Assembly: GCA_000004695.1 (NCBI GenBank) | Contig: CM000151.3 | Location: 8,352,001 to 8,416,000, forward strand | Direction of reading: 5' to 3' | Length of the DNA stretch: 64,000 bases | From: Dictyostelium discoideum | Lineage: Eukaryota | In this document: in pieces, positions 12,904-47,000 of the stretch | Layout: every line of letters begins with the position of its first letter | How positions within the stretch are numbered: the stretch's first letter is position 1 | Translations under genes and position numbers: made by a program | The notes under the pieces: model-generated | What the model was told of the DNA's origin: nothing | The model's database searches: none | Seen by the model: only the letters and a program-made list of their open reading frames with translations

Positions 12904-12976
12904 GGGGATGTAGCTCAGATGGTAGAGCGCTCGCTTAGCATGCGAGAGGTAAAGGGATCGATACCCTTCTTCTCCA
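12904..12976 (+). tRNA. tRNA-Ala (anticodon AGC), 73 nt
   Basis: Cloverleaf: acceptor GGGGATG/CTTCTCC with the G3:U70 alanine identity pair; D-arm GCTC-AGATGGTA-GAGC; anticodon arm CTCGC-TTAGCAT-GCGAG (AGC); T-arm AAGGG-ATCGATA-CCCTT. One T6:T67 acceptor mismatch and an unusual A54, so it may be a slightly degenerate copy. An ex-B-box-like GTTCAATTCC lies about 33 bp downstream. Confidence 0.75.
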
Positions 12977-25924: not shown

Positions 25925-27007
25925 GTTTTGTTTTGTTTTTTTTTTTTTTTTTATAAAGAAAAATAAAAAAATAAATTTATTAATAAAAGGCTCTTTTTGT
26001 TTTTATTTATTTATTTATTTATTTTTTATTTTTGTGTGTAACTTTTTTTTTTTTTTTTTTTTTTTTTTATTTTATTATTAATAAATTAATAATTACCTAA
26101 AAAAAAAAAAAAATAAAAAAAATAAAAATAAAATTTAAATAAAAAAATAAATTATATTAAAATATTTACTTTGTTGTATATATTTCAGAAAGTTTTGTTG
26201 ATTTTTTAATTTAAAAAATATTATCGGGTTTTTAAAATAAATATCTTTTTTTTTATTTTTTTTTATAAAAATAAAAAAAAAAAAAAATAATAAAAATGGG
26301 TGTTATGTAAATGTGTGTTTTTAGTGTGCGTGGGTTTTTTATTTTTTTATTTTTAAATTTAATGATACAAATTCAAATAATTAATAGATTTATTTGATTT
26401 AAGTTTATTTTTAGAATGAAAAATAAATTCTATTAATATGAATGAATTTCACACACAAAAGTGGTATTTTTCCACCAAAAAAAAAATAAAATAAAATAAA
26501 ATAAAAAATGTTATTTGAATGTGATAAAAAGAATGAAAACTATTTTAAAAAAAAAAAAAAAAATAAAAAAAAAAAAAAATAAAAATAAAAATAAAAATAA
26601 AAAATAAAAAAAATAAAAATAAATTTTTAAAAAAATGGGAACAAAAAAAACAAAAATAAAAAAAAATGCACCCAACAACGTTTTTGTTTGAATTAAAATT
26701 TCACAAAATTATTTCTTTTAACCACAAAATTCCAACTGTTTAAAAAAAAAAACTGACATATGAAATTTCATAGGCAAGGCTGAGGAGTGAGGACCTTTTT
26801 ATTTTTGTTACATATAATATAAATAAAGACACAAAGATCAACGAATGGCTATGTTTTTTTTTTTAATTAAATTCAAAGCCAGTTTTTATTTTTTTACAAA
26901 TCAACAACAACAACAAGATTTTAATCAAAATCACCTCCAATATTTTTAACTCTCAACAATAATTTAATAAATGTGTAGTATACTTTTAATTAGTTTAATA
27001 TTTTTTT

Positions 27008-29889: not shown

Positions 29890-31182
29890 ATGATAGAAGA
29901 TAAAGAAAATATTGAAAGAAAAGAGGGTACAGAGGTGAAAACCACTATTGATATAAATATTCAAAGTATAAAAGATGATGAAAATGGTATAAACGCAGCC
30001 ATTGTAACAGAGAGTATAACACAAGAAATTAGTACTGTTTCGCTTCAACAAAATAATTCCGATAATAATAATAAATTATTGAGTAGTAGCGAAAATTCAA
30101 TTAGTCAATTAGAACAATTATTATCAAAAGATGAATTGATAATAAATAATGAAGATAAAACAAATCCATTAATAATAACTACACAATTAGATAATAAAAA
30201 TGAAGTAGAGGAACTAGTAGTAGAAGGAGAGGAAGAAGATAATATAAAACAATTAACAAAGAAAGAAATTCTTGGTGTTTTATTAGTTGATAGTTTTTCA
30301 AATTTTTATATTCAAGATAGTATATTATTCCCACAAAACCAGACGGTAGGTGTTGATGGTGAAATAGAGAAAACTACAACAACAACAGGAATGCCAACAT
30401 TAAGTAATGATATAAATTTAACATCACCAACTTCAATCATTGGAAATGGTTATAAAGATAATGAAGTTACAAGTTTCTTAGTGAATGCTTTTCATTATCT
30501 TTCAATACCAATGACAGTTTTAAATTATCTATTATTAACGAATAAACAATCGATTAGTTCAGCAACTATATCAACATCAACATCAAAACAAATTTCAAAA
30601 GTTTCTTCATTCAGTTCAATTACATCCTTATTACATACACCAACATTAACAAGTTCAACATCAAATAGTAATCTATTAAATATTGTGGATTCTTCAAATT
30701 TTGAAATTACACCAACACCTTTATCACCATTAATATCACCACAGCAAACTACAATTACATCGAGCACCACCACCACCACCACTGCAATGTTAAAACCACA
30801 AAAAAATAAAGAAAATATATTACCAAATAAAGTTGATAAAAATATAATAATGGAATTGGAAATGTTATATGATAATCATTATAATATGGAAATATTTGAA
30901 TATTCTAAAAAAATTTCTCAAGCTCAAAATGATATAGATACAAAGAGTAAACTTTATTTTCAATATCTTTCAGATTTAACAAGGCGTTCACTGGCAATTT
31001 GCCCACCAAAATATTCAGATTTAATTACATCTTCATCACAAAACTCATCAACTTCAAATCAATTTTATATAACTATTCGTGAATCTGTTGAATATTTTTT
31101 AATTCAAAATTTATTTCATCAGTAGGTTATTATTTTTTTTATTATTATTAATTTTTATTATCATTTATTAATTTTTTTATCT

Positions 31183-31231
<49 letters not shown>

Positions 31232-33404
31232 ATTCCAAATTGACTATGATTTGGATTATCAATTTTCAAAAAGAGTTGAATCATTAAAATTTATAGAATT
31301 ATCACATTTAGGTGTAAATAATAATAATAGTAATAATGGTAATAATAGTGGTGGTAGTAGTAATCAATTCAATAAAGAATTATGTCCAACATTATTAAAA
31401 ATAAATGTTTATCAAACACCAATTGATAAACAAAGATGTTTAGCGAGAACATTAGTAAAACTTTTAAAAATTAATGGAGGTGAAGAATTATTATTACCAA
31501 ATTTAGTTTATTTAATACTTTTATCAAACCCACCAAATATTTATTCAAATTATAAATTTTTGGAGAAATTTATTGATCATGAAACTCAAAATCCAATTTA
31601 TGAATATTCTTTCTTACTATTTTCAATGGCAATTCAATTTATTGAAAAGTTAGATCATAATCATCTTTCAATTGATCCATTATATTTTCAATCAAAATTA
31701 TTTGAATATAATCAAAAAAACAATAATAATAATAATAATTTAGCTGCTACAACAACAAATACAACTACAACAACTACAACTACAACAATAGTTAATAATA
31801 TTAATAATTTAGAAATTTCAAATAATAATTTATCAGTTCAATTTTCAAATTTATTAATTAATGAACCAGATTTAAATAATAGTAATAATAATAATGAACA
31901 ATTAAATAATTTTTTAACAGATAATGAAAATAGATTTAAATTATTTAAAGAGAATAATAGAATTCAAACAATGATTGAATTATGTAAAAGTCAAATTACA
32001 GAAAATGAAATTGAAGAGTTATTATTAAAGTTTATATCAATTTCATTGATTAAAGAAAATCCTTCTTATCATTCATTGATTAGATATTCTTTAAAGAGAT
32101 TTTTCATTTATTATTTAGGTATTGAAAAGAATGTTTTCCTTTCAACAGAGATGCATACAATTGGTGCTTTACAAGATGATAATCAAACTAATGGTACTCA
32201 ATTGGATTTATTACCAGATGGTAGTTTAGCAAATAATGCAAATAACAATAGTTCAAATAAAGATAGAGCAATTAAAACTGCAAAGATTGCAGGTGCCGCT
32301 GTAACTGGTGCTGTTTTGGTTGGTATGACTGGTGGTTTAGCTGCACCTTTTATTGGTATGATGTTAAATTTCGTTGGTGCTGGTAGTATTGTTGCTGGTA
32401 TAACGGGTGCAACTGGTTTAAGTAGTGCTACAATGTTATCAGTTATTTTTGGTGCTGCTGGTGCTAAAGTCTCTGCCGGTGCTATGATTTCTGCAACTAG
32501 TGGTATTAAAGATTATCAAATTCATAAGATTAAAAGTCAAACTTCATTACATGCAATCATTGGTGTCTATGGTATTTGTAATGATATGGGTGGTGTTTCA
32601 GATTATTATCAAACCAAATCTGTATGGGATAGAGTCATTAGATCGGTAACCGATGATTATGGTGATATTTTCATTGTTGAATGGGAAAAGGAAGTAATGT
32701 TAAAATTAAAACAATTGGTATCAGAATATCAAGGGACCATCGTTCAAGGAGTTATTAGATCCGCTGCAACCAATATTATCTCTCAATCTTTAGCATCTGC
32801 ATTGGTACCATTATCAGTTTTAAAAGCTGCATCAGTTTTAGATAATCCATGGTCATTATTAAAAGATCGTTCAGAAAAGGCAGGAAAAGTATTGGCTCAA
32901 CAAATTATTGATGGTTATTTTGGAAATAGACCATTGACTTTGGTTTCAACATCAATGGGATCAAGAATGGTTTTCTATGCTTTGGAGGAACTTTATAATC
33001 AGTCTTTAACTAATCCAAAAATCTATTCACTCATTGAATCGGTTGTTTTCATTGGTTCACCAATAACATCGGATCAAAAACGTTGGAGTAAAATTTTAAG
33101 ATTAATAAGTGGCCGTATGGTTAATTGTTATACACCCAATGATTTACTCTTAAAATATGTTTGTCGTTCAATCAATTGTTTATCCGATGGTATTTTACCT
33201 GCTGCTGGTGTTGCACCAATTCATATACCTGGCTCAAGTTTAGTAATTGAAAATGTTGATCTTTCAAATCTTGTTAAAAGTCATTTAGATTATGAAAAAG
33301 AAGAAATACTTTGTAAAATTTTACAACATATTGATATTAATAATATTAAATATTGTTTACCAAAAATTTCACCATTATATAGTGGTAAGGTTTATGATAT
33401 TTAA
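29890..33404 (+). CDS. DUF726/TMCO4-family membrane protein with a long low-complexity N-terminal region; proposed 2 exons, join(29890..31121,31229..33404), about 1136 aa
   Basis: The downstream ORF carries the DUF726 hallmarks: a Gly-zipper TM cluster (AGAAVTGAVLVGMTGGLAAPFIGMMLNFVGAG...) and an abhydrolase-like core (LVSTSMGSRMVFYALEEL...VVFIGSPI). It has no in-frame ATG before residue about 125; the track start is TTG. The upstream ORF ends at a GTAGGT donor (31122) in the correct phase for the aaaaag| acceptor (31228), giving ...NLFH-H-LFQIDYDLDYQFSK... Confidence 0.55.
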
Positions 33405-33797
33405 AATTAAAAAATAAAATTAAAATTATTATTATTTAAAAATGTTTTTTTTTTTTTTTTTTTTTAAAAAAAAGAATAAAGAAATAATAAAATAATCTTT
33501 TTTTAAATAATCACTTTATTTTAAATTCTTATTAATTCAAATAAATTATATTGTCTACAATAACATATTTTTATCTTTTTTGTTATTTTTTTTTTTTTTA
33601 ATCAAAAATCTTTAAAATATAATAATATTGGAATCTATTTGAAAATCAGTTTGTTTTAGTAATTTTTTAAATAAAAAAATTTGATATTAAAATGAATTCA
33701 TTGTAATTTTTAGAATTTATTTATATATATTTTTAAAAAAAAAAAAATAAAAGAAAAAAATTTTATATATTTATATTATTTGTATTTTGTTTTTTTT

Positions 33798-35691
33798 TTA
33801 AAAATTTAAAGAATTAATTAAATCATCGCTTGTATGATTTGGAATTGTAACTTTTAAAGATGGATCTAATTCCATTGCTCTTTTAATTGTATTTTCAGCG
33901 TTATCATTATATGACCAAGAACGACGAGCAATACCATTATTAACATCCCAATTTAACATCATTCTAGCTTTTTCTTCTTGTAATTTACTACCACATAAAT
34001 AGAGACCAAAACCACCATTGATAGCTTCACCAAAACCTGTACCACCACCATTATGAATGGCAACCCAAGTTGCACCTCTAAATGAATCACCAATAACATT
34101 ATGAATAGCCATATCAGCACAAAATTGGGAACCATCTTTAATGTTTGAAGTTTCTCTCCATGGTGCATCAGTACCAGAGACATCATGATGATCTCTACTA
34201 ATTACGACTGGAGCTGATAATGTACCATCGGCAACAGCTTTATTGAAAGCAACTGCTAATTCTGAACGACCAATACAATCACTATAAAGGATACGAGCTT
34301 GTGAACCAACAACTAATTTATGTTCACCTGCTTGACTAATCCAAAGATGATTATCATTAAATTGTTGTTGAACATTCTTTGGTACACCTGGTTGAGATCT
34401 TAATTTTTCAATTAATTCTTTGGCGATACGATCGGTGATTTCTAAATCCTTTGGATTGCCACTGGTACAAACCCAACGGAATGGACCAAAACCCAATGAA
34501 AATATATCACCCATAATATCTTGTACATAGGATGGATAAATGAATTCTTTACCATCTGTGCCTGGTTTAATAATGTCAGCTTTTGCTCTTGATGCCTCTA
34601 ATAGGAAAGAGTTACCATAATCCCAGAATTTCATACCACGTGCAGAGAGTGCATTGATTGCAGTGGTATGTCTTCTAAGGGTTTCTTGTACCATCTCTTT
34701 GAATTTAGTAGGTTCTTGAACCATGAGACGATTTGATTCTTCAAACGAACATTGTACTGGATAATAACCACCATTGAATGGATTGTGTAATGAAGTTTGA
34801 TCTGAACCTAAATCCACAGTAATATCTTTCTCTTCTACTAATTTTTCCCAAAGTGTAACGACATTACCTTGATAAGCTATTGAAAGTGGTTTCTTTTCTT
34901 TACTGCAACTCTAACCCCGAGCAAATAATTCATTTAAATCTGAATATACCTCCATAACCCAATTTTGAGCGTGTCTCTTTTTAACTGCAGCTGGACTAAC
35001 CTCTGCAACAATACAAATTGCACCACAGATGTAGGCAGCTTTAGTTTGAGCACCACTCATACCACCCAAACCTGATGAAACAAATACTTTACCAATGAGT
35101 GATTCAACACCTAAATATTTTCTACCAGCATTTAATAGAGTGATGGTTGTACCATGTACAATACCTTGTGGACCAATGTAACAATAGCTTCCAGCAGTCA
35201 TTTGACCGTATTGTGTAACACCTTGTGCATACATACGTTCATAATCTTTATGGGAGGAATAATTTGGAATCACCATACCATTGGTAACGATAACACGTGG
35301 TGAACTTTCATTTGATGGGAATAAACCCATTGGATGACCACTATACATTGTTAGGGTTTGTTGATCTGTCATCTCTGAAAGATATTTCATGGTTAAATGA
35401 TATTGTGCCCAATTTTGAAAAACACTACCATTACCACCATAGGTTACCAATTCATTTGGAAATTGTGCAACCTCTCTATCTAAATTATTCATAATCATTA
35501 ACATAATCGATGCTGCTTGTCTTGATTTTGCTGGATATTCTTCAATTGGATATGCTTTCATCTCATAATGAGTTGGTCTAAATCTATACATATAAATATG
35601 TCCATATTTATTTAATTCTTCTAAAAATTCATTTGCTAAAATTGAATGTAATGAATTTGGGAAATATCTTAATGAATTTTTAATTGCTAAC

Positions 35692-35722
<31 letters not shown>

Positions 35723-35972
35723 AGATAAATAATAATAATAATAATAACAAATTTAAAAATAAAATAAAAAAAATTAAAAATTAAAAAGCGTGTTAGTTTT
35801 TTAAAATTTTAAATATTTAATAAAAGATATTTTAAATTTTTACCTTTTTTTCGTTTAATGTTAAATTAATTGGACGACCTGGAGCATGTGGTACAGTTGA
35901 ATCTAATCCTGGGTGCTCTGGTAATGGCTCAAAAGGAATACCTTTTGATAATGATGATAATAAATCTTTCAT
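33798..35972 (-). CDS. Urocanate hydratase (urocanase, histidine catabolism); complement(join(33798..35690,35844..35972)); contains an in-frame TAG at 34911-34913
   Basis: Exon 1 (MKDLLSSLSKGIPFEPLPEHPGLDSTVPHAPGRPINLTLNEKK) has donor GTAAAA at 35843 and acceptor at 35691. Exon 2 is collinear with bacterial HutU/human UROC1 (GHIYMYRFRP..., GGNGSVFQNW, QMTAGSYCYIGPQGIVHGT, GLGGMSGAQ, GTDAPWRETS, VAIHNGGGTGFGEA) apart from one amber codon at a residue position that is occupied in orthologues. Confidence 0.8.
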
Positions 35973-36817: not shown

Positions 36818-37167
36818 CGTGATAATTCAATGGAAAAATCAATTCACATTCAGGTTTTCTTTGTTTAGGAATATCAAAAATAAAAAAAAAAAACAAAAAA
36901 AATCGTTAGACAATTATTTTAATTTTTTTAAAATATAGATTTAAAAGCTGTTGTTGATATTTAGATTTTTTTTCTTTTATTTTTCACATTATTAAAAATT
37001 TAATAGAAAAAAAATATTAGGATATTTTCTACTTTTTTTTTTTCTAACAGAATTTTCTGCTCATATGTTTCAGTATCGGGTGAAAATCAAAAAGAATTTA
37101 AAATAAAAAAAATAGATTTTATTTTTGCGAGCTGTTAAACAATTCCCACTTTTTGTTATATGTTATG

Positions 37168-37204
<37 letters not shown>

Positions 37205-37300
37205 CGGTTGGCTGATTTTTTTTTTTTTTTTTTTTTTTTAATAATTTTATAATTTTATAATTTTAATCATTTCTGAAATATTAAATAAATAAAAAATAAA

Positions 37301-38209
37301 ATGAGATTAAGCGGTATTCTTTTATTATTATCAGCATTTGCAGGTATTATCAACTCACAATATGTTTTAGTTGAAGAGTTCCAATACCAAGGTGGCAGTT
37401 GCTCTGGTTCACAATCATCAATTGATTCACAATCATCATTCGATTCACAATCATCATGGGGTTCACAATCATCATGGGGTTCACAATCATCATGGGGTTC
37501 ACAATCATCATGGGCCTCACAATCATCATGGGGTTCATCAGATTCATCAAACTTTTTAACAGCATCTGAATCATCAGGTGAAGCATGTCCATCTTCTTCA
37601 ATTGGTGGTAATATCGTTCAAGAAGGTGTTTGCTTCTATTATGCTGATAGATTACCATCAATTTATACCGTCTCTGGTGATAACATTGTTCAAACATTTT
37701 ATAATCAAACTGATTATAATTGTGAAGGTAATTTTTTTTTTTTTTTTTTTTTTTCTCTTCATTAAACTTTAAACTAATATTTATTTTTATTTTTATTTAT
37801 TTATTATTTTAAAATAGGTAAACCAATTGATACTGTTACCGCAGTTAGTGGTGACTGTTACTCTGCATGTAACCAAGGTACTGGTATTACATTCCAATTA
37901 TCAGCAGTTGCAACTCCAGTTATTCCAACTACCAATACAATTGTAGAAGCTGTTTACACTGGTGAATGTAATGGTAATTATAAGAATTCATTCGTTTCAG
38001 TCTATTACAAATCATTAAATACTTGTAATGATAATGTTGTTGCACAACAAGGTACCTTTTCATTTGAAATCTCTTGTAACTCAACTTCATCAGCTGTTAC
38101 TATCTTTGGAAATGATGACTGTGGTGGTAGCCCAGTTTACTCTTTACACGAACCAATGGTCAACCAATGTGGTGATCAATATAATGTCATTGAAGTTTGT
38201 TACAATTAA
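37301..38209 (+). CDS. Secreted Cys-rich glycoprotein with (SQSSWG)n repeats, possibly ponticulin-like; 2 exons, join(37301..37727,37818..38209)
   Basis: Signal peptide; a Ser-rich repeat SQSSWGSQSSWG...; donor GTAATT after tgt gaa g (phase 1); acceptor aaaatag|; exon 2 is a 130-codon Cys-rich domain (CYSACNQGTG...CNGNY...CNDN...CNSTS...CGGSP...CGDQYNVIEVCYN). Confidence 0.6.
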
Positions 38210-38718
38210 ATTATTGTAAAATTAATCTAAAAAATTTCAATCAAATAAAATTAATATTTAATTTATTTTATTAAACTAAATTATTATTATTATTATTTTT
38301 AATTTTTTTTTTTTTATAAAATGGTAAAACTGGAAAATTTTGGAAAAACAATTTTTTATAAAATGGTGTTTCAAACTCTACATGTAATTCATTATTAAGT
38401 AAAATCAATGTTTTTTGTATGAAATCTGTGTCATAAATAAAAATAAAAAAAAAAAGTTCAAAAAAAAAAATAAAAAAGTTGATTTTTTTTTTTTTTTTTC
38501 ATTTGATAAAATTTATTGATCACGCATAAAAGAAATGTTTTGTGTAAGAAATATATTAGATTTTTTTTTTTTTTTTGATATTTTTTCTATTAACAAAATA
38601 AAATAAAAAATATCTTTTTTTTGAAGATATTTTATGAAACACAATACTCTTTCACAATATTTTTTTTTATTTTTTTCTTTCTTTTTTAATTTACATACAC
38701 ATGCACTAAATTTTGAAA

Positions 38719-40199
38719 ATGAATAAAATTATAATATTAATAATAATATTATTTTTTAAATTTATTCAAAGTCAAATAGATATTATAGAAATTAAATCAG
38801 ATAATACACTCTATATAAAAAATCCAGAAAAATCAAAATCAGATTTTTGTAGTTTCTCTTTTACGTATCTAACAATTTTCCCAGAACCTAAATTTGAAAC
38901 TGAAGGATCTATAATAGGTATTTTCGAAAATGCCCCATTTACTCAATTATATTTACTAGCAAATGATACATGTTCTCTTAATGAATATATTATTCCAAAG
39001 ATTACTTTTGGTAATTATGTTTTTTCTGTAAAATCAAACTCAACATCAGGTGAAAAATTTTTATCTACTTATTTTTCATGTGAACGTATGTGTATTAATA
39101 ATTATTAAATAAAATAAATAAATAAATTAATAAATATTTTATTAAAATAAAATGTTTACTCTTTTTTATAGCAATTGATGTTTCAAAATTAAAATTTTCA
39201 TTTACCCCATATCCAATATCTCTAAGACATACACCTTATCAAAAGGGTGTTTTGAGAATTGTTGGATTAAATAGCTCATGCTCTTTAGAAAGTATACCTT
39301 ATTATCAATTACAAGATACTGGATTTGGTTATTATTATATACCAAACTTTAATGATTTTTCTTTGAATGATGAAAATGCAACTTTTCTTTTTTTTAATTC
39401 AAGTTATACAATGACAATTCCAACAATTTATAAAAGTAATTATACTATTTTTAATAAATCTTGTAAAAAAAAAAAAAAAAATAATAATAATTATTTATTT
39501 TTAGATTATAGTAATATTATTGGTGAAATAAAACCATATCCAAATAAGGATAATGTAATTAAATTAGGAAAGTATCAAGGCCCATTCTTTACATTTCAAA
39601 CTTATTTTAGTTCAGATGATACTCCATATTTTATAATAAAACCAGATTTTTCTCCTCCAGTTTTATTATATGGATCAGAGATAAATAATAGTTACACATA
39701 TGCAAATACTCAATCATTTGGTAATTTCAATGCATCTTTATACTCTCAAAAATTTAGTGAAGTAGTAAATGTTTATAATTTTCTTAAAAATGTTAAACGT
39801 GAGTATTGTTTAATTAAAAAAAAAAAAAAAAATAATAATAAAAAATTAATTATATTTTTTTATTTTTATTATTTTAGAATATAATTTGAGTGTTATGCCT
39901 TCAAGTGCAGATATATCATATAAAAATATTGGTAATTTTTCATTATTTACTATTGAAATTACAAATTCAGACCATTATGATTTCAGTAAATATGTTTATA
40001 TGATTAATTCATTTAGCTCTCCTTTATTGCAATGGCCTTATGGTTTTCTTAGTGGAAATAATAATAAGTATAATTTTCAAATAAGAGGTTTCAACTTACC
40101 CATACCAATGACTCAAACTTCTTCTTTTGTCAATATTAATTTTTTAAATAGTAACGGTATAACCCTTGGTATAAATTATAATACTATTGGTATGTGTTT

Positions 40200-40249
<50 letters not shown>

Positions 40250-40627
40250 ATTTAAATTCTAAACTTTTTTTTTACCAAATAAAAGAACCAGGATTTACAG
40301 AAATTGTAATGTTTAATTTTTCTCATTTATTTGACTCTACATATATTTTTAGAATAACAGTAAAACAAAATGGTGAAAATCTAGCAATCAAAGAGATTTT
40401 ATTAGGAACTCGATCATTTTCTTTCGATAAAATGATACCTGGTGGTAATAAAACTTTTGCAACATTTGAAATTGTTTATGATTATAGAAATGAATATTTT
40501 GAAACTATTGCTTTAGTAAATTCTCTTAATTTAATAAACACTTACCATAATGGTGATTGGTATTCAATTAATCCAATGTTACAACTTAAATTTCCGAATT
40601 TAAATGGTTAGTTATTTAGTTATTTAG

Positions 40628-40698
<71 letters not shown>

Positions 40699-40716
40699 TA
40701 TATTTTAATATTAATT

Positions 40717-40753
<37 letters not shown>

Positions 40754-43307
40754 GAAATTGATATCTTTTCAATAAAAGATATATCGTTTTTATATAATAA
40801 TGTTATAGTTTCAAATGAAAATGTATCAAATATAATTTATTTTAATATTTCAAATTTAGATAGTCACAATATACCTATATTTTCAATGAAATTAAATGAT
40901 CCAGTTTCAGAGAAAAATTTGAAATATTATTATTCAACATGGAGTGATAAATTGAAAATGTTTCAAATTGAATTCTTTATTCCTGCAAATACTTTATCAG
41001 GTATCTTACCTTATATTTTATTTTTATCACATACAGTACTTCTTAAAAGTTCTATTTTATCTTCTCAATTATATATAAAATCAAAATGTATGTATTTTTA
41101 AATAAAAAAAAAAAATAAATAAAAAAAACTAATTTTATATTTTTATAGATTTAGATAGTTATGGACCAATATTTAGTGAATTTAAAAATAAAACAATTAA
41201 CAGTACAACATTTGGATGGGAATTTTATATTGAAGATTCAATTAATGGATTTGATCATGGTGAAATTATAGTTAGAGGTGATTTAGATAGTTCGATTTAT
41301 AAATTTCAAATTTCATCATTAAATAATTTATTAATTGGTAATAAATATAGAGGAAAATATGAAATATTAATTAATTTACAAACTAATGTTTGTGCATCAC
41401 AAAATTATATAATAACAAATGTAAATTTATATGATACACAATCGAATTTAGCAACTTTTTCAAAATTAGATAATAATCAACAAATATCATATAAAACACC
41501 ATTTATAAATTATATGGATAATCCAGATATTTTAAAACATTTTAAAGATTGTGGAAACTATGAAGATGTAACACCACCAAAAGTAAACCATTTTGAAATG
41601 AAAAAGAATGGTAGTGAAATACTAGTATTTGATATATTGGTTGAAGATATTGAATCTGGTTTAAAGTATGACCAATATCCAATTGTATATTTAACAAGTG
41701 AATATTTAGATGTGGTTGAATGTATTTCAGAAATTATATCAATTAATTCAACCAATGCTAAATATAGATGTGAAATGAAGGTACCATATGGGTTTGGCTA
41801 TGGTTGTGGTGTATTAGTTGGTGTTTATGGTTTTATTAATAATGGAGGTTTTTATTCAGGTTTTGAAGAAAATTATGATGGTTCAATCATGGATTATAGT
41901 ATTTATCCAAATTTGGTAATTACCAATACAAGTTCTATAACTTCCAATGGTGATGGTAGTTTATGGATAATGGGTAGTGGATTCAATGGTTATATCAATG
42001 TTAAAGTTTATTATTCTGATACCAAATTAACGCCACCATCAGATAATTTGTCACCAATAATTATTTATTATTCAGCACTAATCATTACAGGATTAAAAGC
42101 AACTGATAAACCATTTACTATTCAAATTGAAATGACTAAAAGTTCAGAAACATATCTATCAAATATTTATACAGTTAATCCAGTTGTATTTGATTATAGT
42201 TATGTTGAACCAACAACAACACCATTACCAACAACTCCACCACAAAAATGTATAGGTTCACCAGAATGTGGTGGTTCAGGTCATGGTTATTGTAATGGGT
42301 TACAAGGATGTATATGTTATTCGCCATGGGTTGGATTGGGTTGTACTTCAAAAGTTGTAGTTATACCACCACCAAAATTAAATTCAACAACACCAACATC
42401 TGAATTACCAGTATTAGGTGAAGGTGAAAATAATAATAATAATAATAATTCAACAAATATATTATTTAAATCATTAATATCAATTGTATCATTAAGAGAA
42501 TTAAATTTTCAAGGTAATGTTGTAAATGAATTTAAATTTGAAAAATGGATTTATTCAGAAATCAATTCAAATAAACATCAATATTTTACAAATATTTCAG
42601 TATCACCAACAGTAAACTTTTTAACAACAAGTACTACTGATATTAAAGTAACAATTCAATGGTTCCCAAATCAAACTACAATAGAATTTGCTAATCAATC
42701 ATTAATAATGAATCCATCAACTGTTAAATATACAATTGAAGTTGGTAGTTATAATTTTAAGAATAAATTAAATCAACTTCAATTAGTTTTATCAGCATCA
42801 ATGGATTCAAGTAATACTAACAACATTTGTTCAAAATCTGAATTTGGTAATACAAATTCTGCAGACAATTCAAATTATGTTAAAATTCAAGTTGATAATC
42901 ATTCATTGTATGGTAGATTTATAAAGAGAGCGATAATTGATTCTCAAGTGATATCAATTGAAAATGAACAATTAGATTCTTCAATGAATCCGATTAATAA
43001 TGGATCATCATCCCAATCATTCATTGGTATTACAATTCCATATTATTTATATAATATAATACTTGATCCTGATTTCTCTGTATTAATAGATAGTAAAAAA
43101 GTTTCATCAAATGATGAAAACTCAATTTGTTCAAAATCATCATCAAATTCATCACTGACTGTTTCTCAATTAGCTGGTATCATTATAGCTTCTGCCGTCA
43201 TATTTTTAAGTATTTGTGCAGCTTTAATATTTATTTTAATTAAAAAAAGAAAACATACATTATTATTAATAATGGCAAAAGATATAGTTTTAAAAAGAAA
43301 GAAATAA
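38719..43307 (+). CDS. Large type-I membrane glycoprotein, paralog A: signal peptide, Cys-poor N-terminal repeats, IPT/TIG-like domain, EGF-like Cys module, TM helix, short basic tail; 7 exons, join(38719..39085,39172..39435,39505..39798,39878..40189,40286..40606,40755..41087,41149..43307); possibly Tgr (tiger)-family-like
   Basis: All six introns are phase 1 with GTATGT/GTAATT/GTGAGT/GTTAGT donors and (t)nAG acceptors; every junction is in frame. IPT-like motif YPNLVITNTSSITSNGDGSLWIMGSGF. EGF-like CIGSPECGGSGHGYCNGLQGCICYSPWVGLGCTS. TM LAGIIIASAVIFLSICAALIFILI followed by KKRKH. Confidence 0.65.
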
Positions 43308-43973
43308 ATAAATTAATTTTATTTTTGAAAACTAATAAAAAAAAAATAAAAAAAAAAAAAAAAAAGAAATGACCTAAAACCACATTTAGTATTCAAAATT
43401 ATCTTTTTAAATTTACTAAAAAAAATATATATAATATAACAATATTTTTTTTTTTTTTTTTTTTTTTTATTAATATTACTAATATCACACTCACAAAATA
43501 ATAATAAAACCATAAAAAAGTACATACCAAAAAAAAAAAAAAAAATAAATAAAACAACCAAATAATTTAAAAAAGTTGTTTTTTTTTTTGGTTATGAAAA
43601 TAGATCATTGATCTTTCTTTTATTTTTTTTTATATATTTTCTCATTTTTTTGTACTTTTCTTTGAAAAAATAAAAAATATATCAGATTTTTAAGTAAGTC
43701 CTCAGAATGTGCAAAGAACCACAAAAAAATTTTGAAAAGTGTAAAGAAAATTACTGGTTTCATATTTTTAAATAAAAATTGAAAATACCCATAAAAAAAA
43801 ACCCCATAAAATATCCAAAGATATTTTTTTAAAAATTATTAAAAAAACATTTTTTTTGAGAACCGCATTCTTTTCTTTTCACTTCATTTTTCAATCCTTT
43901 TTTTTTTTATTTTTAAATTTTGATATAAAAAAAAATTTTATTTTATTTTTACCAAAATGATTTCATAAATATG

Positions 43974-43974
<1 letters not shown>

Positions 43975-44048
<74 letters not shown>

Positions 44049-44085
44049 AATAAATAAAATAAATAAATAAAATAAATAAATAAAA
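43975..44085. repeat. (AAAT)n microsatellite immediately upstream of paralog B. A similar (TATTTATT)n run at 40617-40700 lies inside paralog A intron 5.
   Basis: Direct reading. Confidence 0.9.
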
Positions 44086-44088
44086 AAA

Positions 44089-47000
44089 ATGAAAAATATA
44101 AATATTATTATTTTATTATTTTTATTAAATGTTTATAATATCAATTGTCAAAGTTTAAATATAATTGATGTATCTCTTGGGAGTAATAGTTTATATCCTT
44201 TGACATCGGATCAAATTGTTTGTTATCTTCAATTAGAAATTCAAGTAATTTCCACATTTAGTGGTTGGTATTCATTTAGTATACCATATTCAAGTGATCC
44301 TTATTTCCCAAATTCAAATTATGTTTTAACATCTCCCGTTTCAAATTCAACTAATACGATTTTTATATATCAAAATCAACCAATACCTTATGGGACTCAT
44401 TCATTTACGATATATTCAGATTTACTACTTTATAATGGTACAGGTTTTGTTCAAATCCTTACAAGTTCTTTTCAAACTGAATATACATGTAATAGTAAGT
44501 ATGAAAATTATATATATACAAATAAATTATTTTAAAAATGATTTTTTTATTAATCACAAATAAATAAATAATAATAAAAAAAAAAAAAAAAGGAATTGAT
44601 GTAAATTTAATACAATTAAATTTCATACCTACAATAAGATCATTTGATCCCAATTCAATGAGAATGGGTGTGTTAAAAGTAAATGGATTACATAATAGTT
44701 GTACTCTTTCGACATCAATTGGTTTTTTACCAGATGGAGGTTCAAATAATTATTGGGTTTTAAATTTTCAAACTCCTTTATCAATTGCTACCAATTCTTT
44801 AAATTTAACAATTTGGTTTGCTGATAAAACTTTTTATATTGATATACCGTCAATATATAAAAGTAGGTAAATTAATTTATTATTATTATTATAATTATTT
44901 TTATTGAATGATTATTTTAAATTATTAATTAAAATTTATTAAGCATTTATTGGTAGCTTTAGTCCTATTACACTATATCCAAATCAAATTAATATTACTA
45001 GATTTGGAATTAATGAATTTCCATTATTCTCTTTTACTGTGGATTCTAAAGATTATCCATATATATTTTATGATAGAGATGTAAGAAGTCCAGTAGTAAT
45101 TGCATATGGTTCAAATGATAATTATACGTATATTGGTATTTTAAGTAATTCTGGTGCATTAACTCAAACTGGTATATATGCACTACAAGGTGACAATATT
45201 AATTTAATTAATAATGTTACAACAGATATTTCAAGTAAGATTAATTATATATATATAAAAAGGATAAAAATTATAATTTATAATATTAATAGGTCATTTT
45301 GATTAATAATAATAATAAATAAATAGGCTTTGTTACAAATGTGATACCATCAACAGGAACCGTTTCAAATTTTTCAAAGATTGGTTCATCAAATATATTT
45401 TCAGTATCATTTGATGGATTTCAAAGTTATGATTTAAATGATTACCAAATAACATTTCAAACTTTATATTCAATAACTCAATGGCCATTTGGTTTCTCTG
45501 GATCAAATAAGAATTTTACATTTGATGCATCATTTTTATTGTCACAAAACTCATCATTAGGAGATCAAAGCATGTTATCAATTTTTCCTTTAAATAATTA
45601 CGGAACTCAATTTAGTGTATACATACCTTTAAATTACCCTGAAAATGGTGGTATGTATTATTAATAATTATAATTTTATTGGGTTTATAATATATATTTA
45701 TTATTCTTTATATTTTTTTTTTAAAAAAATGATAGTAAGTTCACGTATTATTATTACAGATTTTAAAGTGATTCATTTGTTTGATTTCAAATATATTGTT
45801 AGAATGGCCTTTATAATTAATGGTCAACCTTATCCTTTGACATCTATTTCAATAAATGATAAAATATATAAATATGAAAATTTGGCATCAGGTGATTTGA
45901 GTAATGGTGTTTTTGAATTTATTTGGGATTATAAATTCTACATTAATACGATATCCATTAGAACTTTTGCAAATAACGTTTATACTTTAAATTCAAATGA
46001 TTTTTACTCAATAGGCCCAAATAAAAGAATTACTTTCCCTACTTTTAAAAGTAATTATAAATTTATTTATATTTTTATATATTGATTATATATATACTAA
46101 CCAATTAATTTATTATTATTATAATAGCATATGATATTAGTTCAATAAAAGATATTACCTTTTTATATAATAACGTCAATATAACAAATAAATCAGTTTC
46201 AAATATAATGTATTTCAAAATTAATGGATTTAATCCACAAAATCAAACTGCACCAACAATTTGTCTTTTATTAGTGGACCCAGTTTCAACATTTGCTCCT
46301 ACATTAGAACCAGATTCTGGAAAATATTGTTCGAAATGGAATAAAGTTATGGGTGTATTTCAAATTGAATTTATTATACCTTCAAATACACTTTCTGGAG
46401 TTTTACCATACAATTTAATATTTAATCAATATTATTCAATTGAAAGTTCAACACTTTCAAATTCTTCACAACTCTTTATATATTCAAATTGTATGTATTT
46501 TTTTAAAAAAAAAAAAATAATAAAAAAAAAAAAAATTATTAACTTTTAATTTCTATTTTTATAGATTTTGATGCTTATGGACCAATATTTAGTGAATTTA
46601 AAAATAAAACAATTAATAGTACAACATTTGGATGGGAATTTTATATTGAAGATTCAATTAATGGATTTGATCATGGTGAAATTATAGTTAGAGGTGATTT
46701 AGATAGTTCGATTTATAAATTTTATTTAACAATAAATAATTTATTAATTGGTAATAAATATAGAGGAAAATATGAAATATTAATTAATTTACAAACTAAT
46801 GTTTGTGCATCACAAAATTATATAATAACAAATGTGAATTTATATGATACACAATCAAATATAGCAATACATACAAGATTGAATGGTTATAAATATGATT
46901 CGGTAAAAACACCTTTTATAAATTATTTAGATAATTCAGACATTTTACTATTTAATTTACAATGTGGTAGTTTTATTGATGATACTCCGCCACTATTAAA

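What the first reader, a model, noticed from the sequence alone, without database searches (positions are those of the whole stretch)
33798..35972. In-frame amber (TAG) codon inside an otherwise intact, highly conserved urocanase gene
The urocanase CDS is collinear with bacterial HutU and metazoan UROC1 across both exons, with no frameshift or indel nearby, yet it carries a single TAG at 34911-34913 on the minus strand (...ELFARG-TAG-SCSKEKKPLSIAYQGN...). The stop sits at an ordinary residue position: the 26-residue block spanning it aligns gap-free with [26 protein letters not shown]. All three frames are closed there, and the two conserved flanks are 9 nt apart, so an intron cannot bypass it. 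Possible explanations are a strain-specific nonsense allele or young pseudogene, a base-call error in a draft assembly (TAT/TAC/CAG/AAG/GAG/TGG to TAG is one substitution), or programmed readthrough.
Basis: partly seen in the sequence, partly recalled or inferred. Interest (0 to 1): 0.65.

Follow-up and report, generated by a model that had tools for sequence, protein, structure and literature searches.

The report
Reference sequencing error in urocanase gene
The stop codon inside this Dictyostelium urocanase gene is almost certainly a local base-calling error in the AX4 reference genome, where an extra base and a missing base 15 nt apart garble five codons, so it is not a nonsense mutation or recoding signal.

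Summary
The TAG at 34911-34913 (minus strand) is real in the window, and the gene is a two-exon urocanase. It is not a point nonsense change at an ordinary residue position. Every other Dictyostelium sequence recovered reads GCT CGT GTT AGA GTT GCA GTT AAA (A-R-V-R-V-A-V-K). These include an assembly identical to the window across the rest of the gene, 7 run assemblies, 2 diverged D. discoideum isolates, cf. discoideum, D. citrinum, D. dimigraforme and D. firmibasis. The window reads GCT CGG GGT TAG AGT TGC AGT AAA. That is TG>GGG plus loss of one T 15 nt downstream, a compensated +1/-1 frameshift in which the TAG is the out-of-frame GT-TAG-A. The window's +1 frame still spells VRVAV. The window's translation minus the TAG equals the AX4 reference protein Q86AX3/XP_642464.2 exactly, so curators simply skipped the codon. 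The position matches a 3-nt 'tiny intron' (chr2:8386911-8386913) that Singh et al. 2017 listed as an artificial fix for genome errors. In the surrounding 22 kb the window alone carries the odd base at 9 of 10 substitution differences. Verdict: reference artefact, low interest. The one practical result is that the reference protein carries a wrong GSCS patch where VRVAV belongs.

The parts
35844..35972 (-). Urocanase exon 1 (ATG at 35972..35970; 43 codons, phase 0)
   Evidence: Exon 1 + exon 2 translation minus the TAG equals the AX4 protein P0122.
35691..35843 (-). Genuine intron (153 nt, GT..AG, very A/T-rich)
   Evidence: The junction is confirmed by identity of the spliced translation to P0122 and P0127.
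33798..35690 (-). Urocanase exon 2, ending in TAA at 33800..33798
   Evidence: Pfam Urocanase_N, Urocanase and Urocanase_C on the repaired product P0127. 6UEK urocanase matches at E=2e-291.
34911..34913 (-). The in-frame TAG. It is skipped in the AX4 reference protein and corresponds to the dictyBase curated 3-nt 'tiny intron' chr2:8386911-8386913 of model DDB0234152.
   Evidence: Table S1 of PMC5282741, with the window start inferred as chr2:8,352,001 = 261 x 32,000 + 1.
34902..34917 (-). Aberrant 16-nt patch, GGG TTAGAGTTGCAG T in the window versus TG TTAGAGTTGCAG TT in all other sequences. Codons 34916..34902 read G * S C S instead of V R V A V, and the preceding Arg codon is CGG instead of CGT.
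   Evidence: DNA; protein. One search shows the +1 frame spelling GVRVAVKK. One search shows that the only CGG and the only TGC codon of the gene lie here.

Best explanation
The TAG is an artefact of the AX4 chromosome 2 reference sequence, which is an ~8x Sanger assembly. Over 16 nt the base caller or assembler wrote GGG for TG and T for TT. That is one miscall, one extra base and one dropped base, and the length stays the same. Five codons are therefore read one base out of register. The true GTT AGA GTT GCA GTT (V-R-V-A-V) appears as GGT TAG AGT TGC AGT (G-stop-S-C-S), and the frame then recovers. The living organism most likely makes a normal 673-residue urocanase. dictyBase curators kept the gene model alive by excising the TAG as an impossible 3-nt 'intron'. 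The reference protein (Q86AX3, XP_642464.2) is therefore 672 residues long, with GSCS where VRVAV belongs.

Shown directly: the exact nucleotide differences, the identity of the window with the AX4 protein, and the intactness of all other sequences. Inferred: that the AX4 cells themselves carry the intact sequence, that L008 is strain AX2-214, and the base-calling mechanism.
For: 1. The window translation minus the TAG equals the AX4 reference protein P0122. The window with G*SCS changed to VRVAV equals P0127, from another D. discoideum assembly, at all 673 residues.

2. At DNA level L001/L008 (GCA_054883475.1) is identical to the window across the 2,175-nt gene except for the three changes at 34917-34902.

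3. All other sequences keep CGT GTT AGA GTT GCA (G/A)TT AAA or synonymous variants. These are six Logan run assemblies read at DNA level (a seventh on record), and loci from diverged D. discoideum, cf. discoideum, two D. citrinum and D. firmibasis. At protein level the same holds for D. dimigraforme, D. purpureum and more distant species.

4. The window's +1 frame spells GVRVAVKK. The solved urocanase 6UEK has RVRAAS at this position.

5. The gene's only CGG codon (1 of 28 Arg) and only TGC codon (1 of 9 Cys) sit in the patch.

6. Three events within 17 nt among 12 non-homopolymer differences in 22.2 kb gives P about 3e-4.

7. In that 22 kb, outgroups L014 and L015 side with L008 against the window at 9 of 10 substitution differences. 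Seven of the nine window-only bases are G or C where all others have A or T (binomial p=0.02). This stretch of the reference therefore carries many reference-only calls.

8. PRJNA1300491 holds only three assemblies labelled D. discoideum: AX2-214, CR116C and OT3A, the last two described as diverged from AX4 (PMC12745789). L008 is 0.05% from the window, against 1.74% for L009, so by elimination L008 is AX2-214. Ax2 and AX4 share an identical axeB deletion and hence a very recent common ancestor (PMC4374526). At 2.9e-11 mutations per site per generation (PMC3466296), about 0.06 real substitutions are expected in 22 kb even over 1e5 generations.

9. Singh et al. 2017 (PMC5282741) found 119 introns shorter than 5 bp in dictyBase models and showed with RNA-seq that the examined cases are genome errors. 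Their Table S1 lists chr2 8386910..8386914, minus strand, length 3. That entry coincides with the TAG if the window starts at chr2:8,352,001.

10. No assembly on record encodes the truncated product.
Against: No reads from AX4 itself could be examined, so a genuine lesion in the AX3/AX4 lineage is not formally excluded. The identification of L008 as AX2-214 rests on elimination, not on a strain label seen in a record. The match to the Table S1 entry rests on coordinate arithmetic; I could not confirm that DDB0234152 is the urocanase model. One of the ten substitution differences (36341) has L008 as the outlier, so the comparison assembly is not error-free either. The absence of the truncated product from the protein collection is weak evidence, because no AX4-derived run assembly of this gene appears there in either form.
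Confidence: 0.9

Rival explanations
1. The lesion is a genuine complex mutation in the AX3/AX4 laboratory lineage. AX4 would then really carry TG>GGG and delT, and would be a urocanase-null strain with a premature stop after residue 302, unable to complete histidine catabolism. The reference would be correct.
For: The sequence is what the reference assembly says. No AX4 reads were available to contradict it. The rest of the gene is undamaged, which a very young null allele would also show. A nutrient-rich axenic lab strain could tolerate loss of the pathway (inference).
Against: It needs three separate nucleotide events within 17 nt that happen to restore the frame, on a background of zero other changes in the gene. 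The measured mutation rate is 2.9e-11 per site per generation and the split from the Ax2 line is very recent. The same 22 kb holds eight further reference-only substitutions, mostly A/T>G/C. That pattern is typical of miscalls, not of mutation in an AT-rich genome. From memory and untested: AX3 was isolated after nitrosoguanidine treatment, which gives mainly G:C>A:T transitions, and that is not the pattern seen here. The tiny introns that Singh et al. examined against RNA-seq turned out to be genome errors.
Confidence: 0.07
2. The TAG is decoded. It would be translated by programmed stop-codon readthrough, by a suppressor tRNA or reassigned TAG, or bypassed by a real splicing or ribosomal event.
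For: The downstream 370 codons are intact and conserved. The reference annotation treats the codon as removed.
Against: No orthologue has a stop or any special codon at this position. The conserved residues VRVAV are encoded in the +1 frame of the window, so reading through the TAG would give G-X-SCS, which no species has. In the window, 5 of 25 long stop-to-stop ORFs end in TAG, and no tRNA with a CUA anticodon was found. A 3-nt intron without GT..AG is mechanistically impossible (argued in PMC5282741).
Confidence: 0.01
3. The gene is an old pseudogene, decaying in D. discoideum.
For: There is an in-frame stop in the reference.
Against: There are no other disabling changes. Other D. discoideum sequences have an intact gene. 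The three substitutions outside the patch that separate the Logan run assemblies from the window are all synonymous. Identity is 97% to D. citrinum and 64-66% to animals and bacteria, and the columns invariant across the 14 aligned urocanases are all retained.
Confidence: 0.01

Closest known systems
dictyBase 'tiny intron' artefacts in the AX4 annotation (Singh et al. 2017, BMC Genomics 18:120, PMC5282741). Examples are the 2-nt intron of clcD (DDB_G0278639) and the two 3-nt TAA 'introns' of DDB_G0279477.
   Same: This is a curated AX4 gene model with a 3-nt gap that removes an in-frame stop in an otherwise conserved ORF. The site coincides with an entry of their Table S1 (chr2 8386910..8386914, minus strand, length 3). 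Other sequences show that the genome sequence, not the gene, is at fault.
   Different: In DDB_G0279477 the error is a single miscalled base (TAA for TTA), and in clcD it is one missing base. Here the lesion is compound: a substitution, a +1 and a -1 within 16 nt. Excising the TAG therefore does not restore the true protein and leaves a wrong GSCS patch in place of VRVAV. That paper did not discuss this particular gene.
Urocanate hydratase (HutU / UROC1; Pfam PF17391, PF01175, PF17392; solved structures 6UEK and 1UWK)
   Same: The repaired product has all three domains over its full length. It gives E=2e-291 against 6UEK and is collinear with bacterial and animal enzymes.
   Different: Nothing differs once the patch is repaired. 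As written in the window, the ORF is interrupted after residue 302.
Programmed stop-codon readthrough or stop-codon reassignment
   Same: The only shared feature is an in-frame stop followed by conserved coding sequence.
   Different: The stop is absent from all orthologues. The residues flanking it are frame-shifted relative to the conserved sequence. TAG ends other long ORFs in the window.

Membership tests
Urocanate hydratase (HutU/UROC1) | Urocanase_N, Urocanase and Urocanase_C domains over the full length | tested here: met
   Precomputed Pfam hits are on P0127, which equals the window product with the patch repaired, and on all top homologues.
Urocanate hydratase (HutU/UROC1) | Full-length collinearity and high identity with characterised or solved urocanases | tested here: met
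   6UEK matches at E=2e-291 over residues 1-669, and 1UWK/1UWL at about 1e-94. The 14-sequence alignment has 76% mean column identity.
Urocanate hydratase (HutU/UROC1) | Uninterrupted reading frame | tested here: not met
   As written in the window there is a TAG at codon 303. The frame is intact in every other Dictyostelium sequence, and the failure is attributed to reference error.
dictyBase tiny-intron artefact class (Singh et al. 2017) | Curated AX4 gene model with a gap of <5 nt | tested here: met
   The AX4 protein equals the window translation with exactly the TAG codon removed. Table S1 has an entry at chr2 8386910..8386914, minus strand, length 3. It matches by coordinate arithmetic, which is an inference.
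dictyBase tiny-intron artefact class (Singh et al. 2017) | Independent sequence of the same species contradicts the reference at the site | tested here: met
   L001/L008, six Logan run assemblies and L009 all read CGTGTTAGAGTTGCA(G/A)TTAAA.
dictyBase tiny-intron artefact class (Singh et al. 2017) | Reads from strain AX4 itself contradict the reference | not testable with these tools
   No AX4 read data were reachable. The look-ups found neither form from an AX4-labelled source.
Programmed stop-codon readthrough or recoding | Stop codon conserved in orthologues at the same position | tested here: not met
   None of the orthologues has a stop there. The aligned codon is AGA (Arg), in a different frame of the window.
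Stop-codon reassignment (TAG as sense) | TAG not used as a terminator; cognate suppressor tRNA present | tested here: not met
   5 of 25 long stop-to-stop ORFs in the window end in TAG (a crude test, since exon ends were not separated from gene ends). The only tRNA in the window is Ala-AGC.
Processed or decaying pseudogene | Several disabling lesions, relaxed constraint, loss of the intron | tested here: not met
   There is a single lesion patch. The intron is retained. Outside the patch there are no differences from L008 in the CDS.

The most novel reading that the evidence does not exclude
AX4, and perhaps AX3, the most widely used Dictyostelium laboratory lineage, really carries this compound lesion. 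It would then be a natural urocanase knockout that cannot catabolise histidine past urocanate, while its sister line AX2 is wild type. That would be an unrecognised metabolic difference between standard lab strains.
Probability: 0.06. Interest if true: 0.25.

Novelty: not a real feature. Interest (0 to 1): 0.06.

Why it matters
The biological significance is small. The practical consequences are as follows.

1. The reference protein for D. discoideum urocanase (UniProt Q86AX3, RefSeq XP_642464.2) is one residue short. It carries GSCS where every relative, including another D. discoideum lab-type assembly, has VRVAV. The corrected sequence is P0127 (KAM9946680.1).

2. Excising a stop codon as a 3-nt 'intron' hid a compensated frameshift. 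Other tiny-intron models in AX4 may hide similar wrong patches.

3. This 22-kb stretch of the chromosome 2 reference contains about nine further reference-only base calls, one of them a Pro/Thr missense in a VPS9-domain gene.

In-frame stops and odd residues found by scanning the AX4 reference should therefore be checked against the newer long-read assemblies before being read as biology.

Tried and rejected
1. I tried to fetch the AX4 locus itself by the reference protein. No gene with that product is on record, presumably because the spliced model skips the TAG.

2. I looked for the truncated 226-aa product in all assemblies by exact look-up and by homology search. Nothing from Dictyostelium turned up. 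This is uninformative about AX4, because no AX4 run assembly of the gene appears in either form.

3. I scanned the JGI metagenome contigs for the aberrant 30-mer and for the corrected 30-mer. Both gave zero hits, so the test is uninformative.

4. I searched the literature for the protein accession and for 'Dictyostelium urocanase'. There were no papers.

5. I looked in the supplements of PMC12745789 for a strain-to-accession table to confirm that L008 is AX2-214. None is held, so the assignment stays an inference by elimination.

7. Readthrough, TAG reassignment and a real intron are rejected by the frame evidence.

8. MAFFT aligned the site without gaps because both versions have the same length. 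The indel pair shows up only in the gap-permitting pairwise alignments and by inspection.

Full report
**What is in the window**

The minus strand between 35972 and 33798 carries a two-exon gene. Exon 1 is 35972..35844 (43 codons). A 153-nt GT..AG intron lies at 35843..35691. Exon 2 is 35690..33798 and ends in TAA. The local reading is ...SDLNELFARG*SCSKEKKPLSIAYQGN....

The product is a urocanate hydratase. The top database hits are dictyostelid urocanases at 74-97% identity. Animal, oomycete and Bacteroidota enzymes follow at 63-66% over the whole length, all carrying Pfam PF17391, PF01175 and PF17392. The solved structure 6UEK matches at E=2e-291.

**The stop is not a point change**

In the 14-sequence alignment every other urocanase has R-[VIL]-[KR]-x-A at this place. 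The closest relatives read ELFAR-VRVAV-KEKKPL. The cluster around the best hit contains nine further Dictyostelium proteins.

- The three from other D. discoideum assemblies read VRVAV or VRVAI. Those from cf. discoideum, D. dimigraforme and D. firmibasis read VRVAI, VRAAI, VKVAV or VRLAL. A Logan-derived 597-aa protein reads VRVAV.
- The AX4 reference protein (P0122 = EAL68537.2 / XP_642464.2 / UniProt Q86AX3.2, 672 aa) reads ELFARG-SCSKEKK. That is the window's translation with the stop simply left out.
- A script confirmed that the window translation minus the TAG equals P0122 exactly.
- It also confirmed that the window with G*SCS replaced by VRVAV equals P0127 (KAM9946680.1) at all 673 residues.

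So the window is the AX4 reference sequence, and its gene model steps over the TAG.

**Nucleotide anatomy**

I fetched the DNA encoding P0127 (L001/L008, GCA_054883475.1). I also fetched six Logan run assemblies (L002-L007: SRR28564540/41/43 and SRR26869256-58) and loci from a diverged D. discoideum isolate (L009), cf. discoideum (L013), two D. citrinum (L010, L011) and D. firmibasis (L012).

All of them read GCT CGT GTT AGA GTT GCA (G/A)TT AAA GAx AAG or synonymous variants. The window reads GCT CGG GGT TAG AGT TGC AGT AAA GAA AAG. Gap-permitting alignment resolves the difference into three events:

- an extra G,
- a G for T,
- a missing T.

In other words TG became GGG at 34917-34915, and GTT AAA became GTAAA at 34902. 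The net length change is zero. Five codons (34916..34902) are read one base out of register, and the TAG is the GT-TAG-A of the true GTT AGA. The window's +1 frame still spells GVRVAVKK. The gene's only CGG codon (1 of 28 Arg) and only TGC codon (1 of 9 Cys) lie inside the patch.

**Error or mutation?**

Across the 2.6 kb around the gene, L001 differs from the window only by these three events and by one poly-T length. Across 22.2 kb there are 25 difference events:

- 13 are lengths of long A or T runs, with the window longer in 12.
- 12 are other changes.

Three of the 12 falling within 17 nt has P about 3e-4.

I then fetched 22-kb loci from two outgroups, L014 (1.7% diverged) and L015 (2.6% diverged). 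At 9 of the 10 substitution differences between the window and L008, both outgroups agree with L008, and the window alone has the odd base. Seven of those nine are G or C where everyone else has A or T (binomial p=0.02).

That asymmetry and direction are not what real divergence in a 77% A+T genome looks like. They point to miscalls in the reference.

**Which strain is L008?**

The assemblies come from PRJNA1300491 (Holland et al. 2025, PMC12745789). [quoted passage not shown] The same table gives AX4 8x coverage.

L008 is 0.05% from the window in exon 2, against 1.74% for L009. By elimination L008 is AX2-214. This is an inference; no strain table was available.

Ax2 and AX4 share an identical axeB deletion-insertion and therefore a very recent axenic ancestor (Bloomfield et al. 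2015, PMC4374526). With a mutation rate of 2.9e-11 per site per generation (Saxer et al. 2012, PMC3466296), about 0.06 substitutions are expected in 22 kb even over 1e5 generations. Nine are seen, plus the compound patch. Saxer et al. also reported 1,916 candidate differences from the reference that were shared between AX4 lines. They attributed these to reference errors, to differences between their ancestor clone and the reference, or to mutations that arose while the lines were being founded.

**Already flagged in the literature**

Singh et al. 2017 (PMC5282741) inspected all dictyBase models and found 119 'introns' shorter than 5 bp in 102 genes. They showed with RNA-seq that the examined cases are genome errors, for example 3-bp TAA 'introns' that are really TTA. 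They concluded that arguably none are genuine and that all are artificial constructs to keep models in frame.

Their Table S1 lists chr2 8386910..8386914, minus strand, Parent=DDB0234152, Length=3. If the window begins at chr2:8,352,001, which is 261 x 32,000 + 1, that 3-nt gap is exactly window 34911-34913 on the same strand. No other chr2 entry gives a round start. This is arithmetic inference, and I could not confirm the model's name.

**Rivals**

- A genuine AX3/AX4-lineage null allele cannot be excluded without AX4 reads. It needs three events in 17 nt that restore the frame, in a lineage only decades old, next to eight other reference-only calls. I give it about 0.07.
- Readthrough, TAG reassignment or real splicing are excluded. 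No orthologue has a stop. The conserved residues are in another frame. TAG ends 5 of 25 long ORFs in the window. The only tRNA in the window is Ala-AGC. A 3-nt intron is not spliceable.
- An old pseudogene is excluded, because there are no other lesions.

**How the artefact most likely arose (inference, own knowledge)**

In low-coverage Sanger data a compressed or noisy stretch is often called with about the right number of peaks but the wrong identities. The result is an inserted base and a dropped base close together. An 8x whole-chromosome shotgun would leave such a patch uncorrected.

**Dead ends**

- The AX4 locus could not be fetched through its protein.
- The truncated product is not on record anywhere.
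- Neither 30-mer occurs in the JGI metagenome contigs.
- No paper mentions the protein.

**Verdict**

It belongs to a known class and is of low interest. The useful by-product is the nucleotide-level diagnosis. The curated fix of skipping the TAG leaves a wrong four-residue patch, GSCS for VRVAV, in the reference proteome, and P0127 gives the corrected protein.

Noticed in passing
window 31386 (+ strand C; VPS9/DUF726-domain gene at about 29937-33443, + strand): The window has CCA (Pro) in ...KELC-P-TLLK..., where L008 and both outgroups (L014, L015) have ACA (Thr). This is a reference-only missense call, probably another AX4 reference error.
   Followed up: partly
window 36207, 29321, 26475, 26472, 24021, 23993, 23961 (all intergenic): There are seven more substitutions where the window alone differs from L008, L014 and L015. 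Most are G or C in the window against A or T elsewhere, for example GGTGG versus GTTGT at 26475/26472. Together they suggest roughly 4 reference-only calls per 10 kb in this part of chromosome 2.
   Followed up: partly
window 43468, 40748, 40245, 37240, 36224, 36042, 31227, 28782, 26567, 25952, 25924, 23955 (and 37204): Thirteen long A or T homopolymer tracts differ in length between the window and L008. The window is longer in 12 of them, by 2-10 nt. This may reflect homopolymer shortening in the Nanopore-based assembly rather than reference error. It was not resolved.
   Followed up: no
window 36341: This is the one substitution where L008 (A) is the outlier, against the window and both outgroups (T). 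The comparison assembly therefore has its own error or private mutation.
   Followed up: partly
window about 38738-43312 and 44089 to about 48700 (+ strand): These are tandem paralogous large genes with DUF7035, DUF7034, DUF8390, DUF7949 and ComC_SSD domains. One copy matches the next at about 81% nucleotide identity over 2.4 kb. Short ~100-nt low-complexity repeats near 40608-40735 and 43936-44104 match each other.
   Followed up: no
L015 1-9000 versus window about 37000-46000: Upstream of the urocanase gene, the cf. discoideum locus has a different gene content from the window, L008 and L014. It has a CfaA_B_C-domain gene and two small genes in place of one ComC-like copy. This is a local synteny difference between D. 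discoideum and its possible cryptic sister species.
   Followed up: no
window 12904-12976 (+): A tRNA-Ala (AGC) gene, the only tRNA found in the window.
   Followed up: no
L002-L007 versus window 35710, 34140, 33858, 33828: Six Logan run assemblies from two SRA series share four substitutions relative to the window. The three in the CDS are all synonymous. The assemblies therefore come from a distinct natural D. discoideum genotype about 0.2% diverged, and they too have the intact VRVAV frame.
   Followed up: partly
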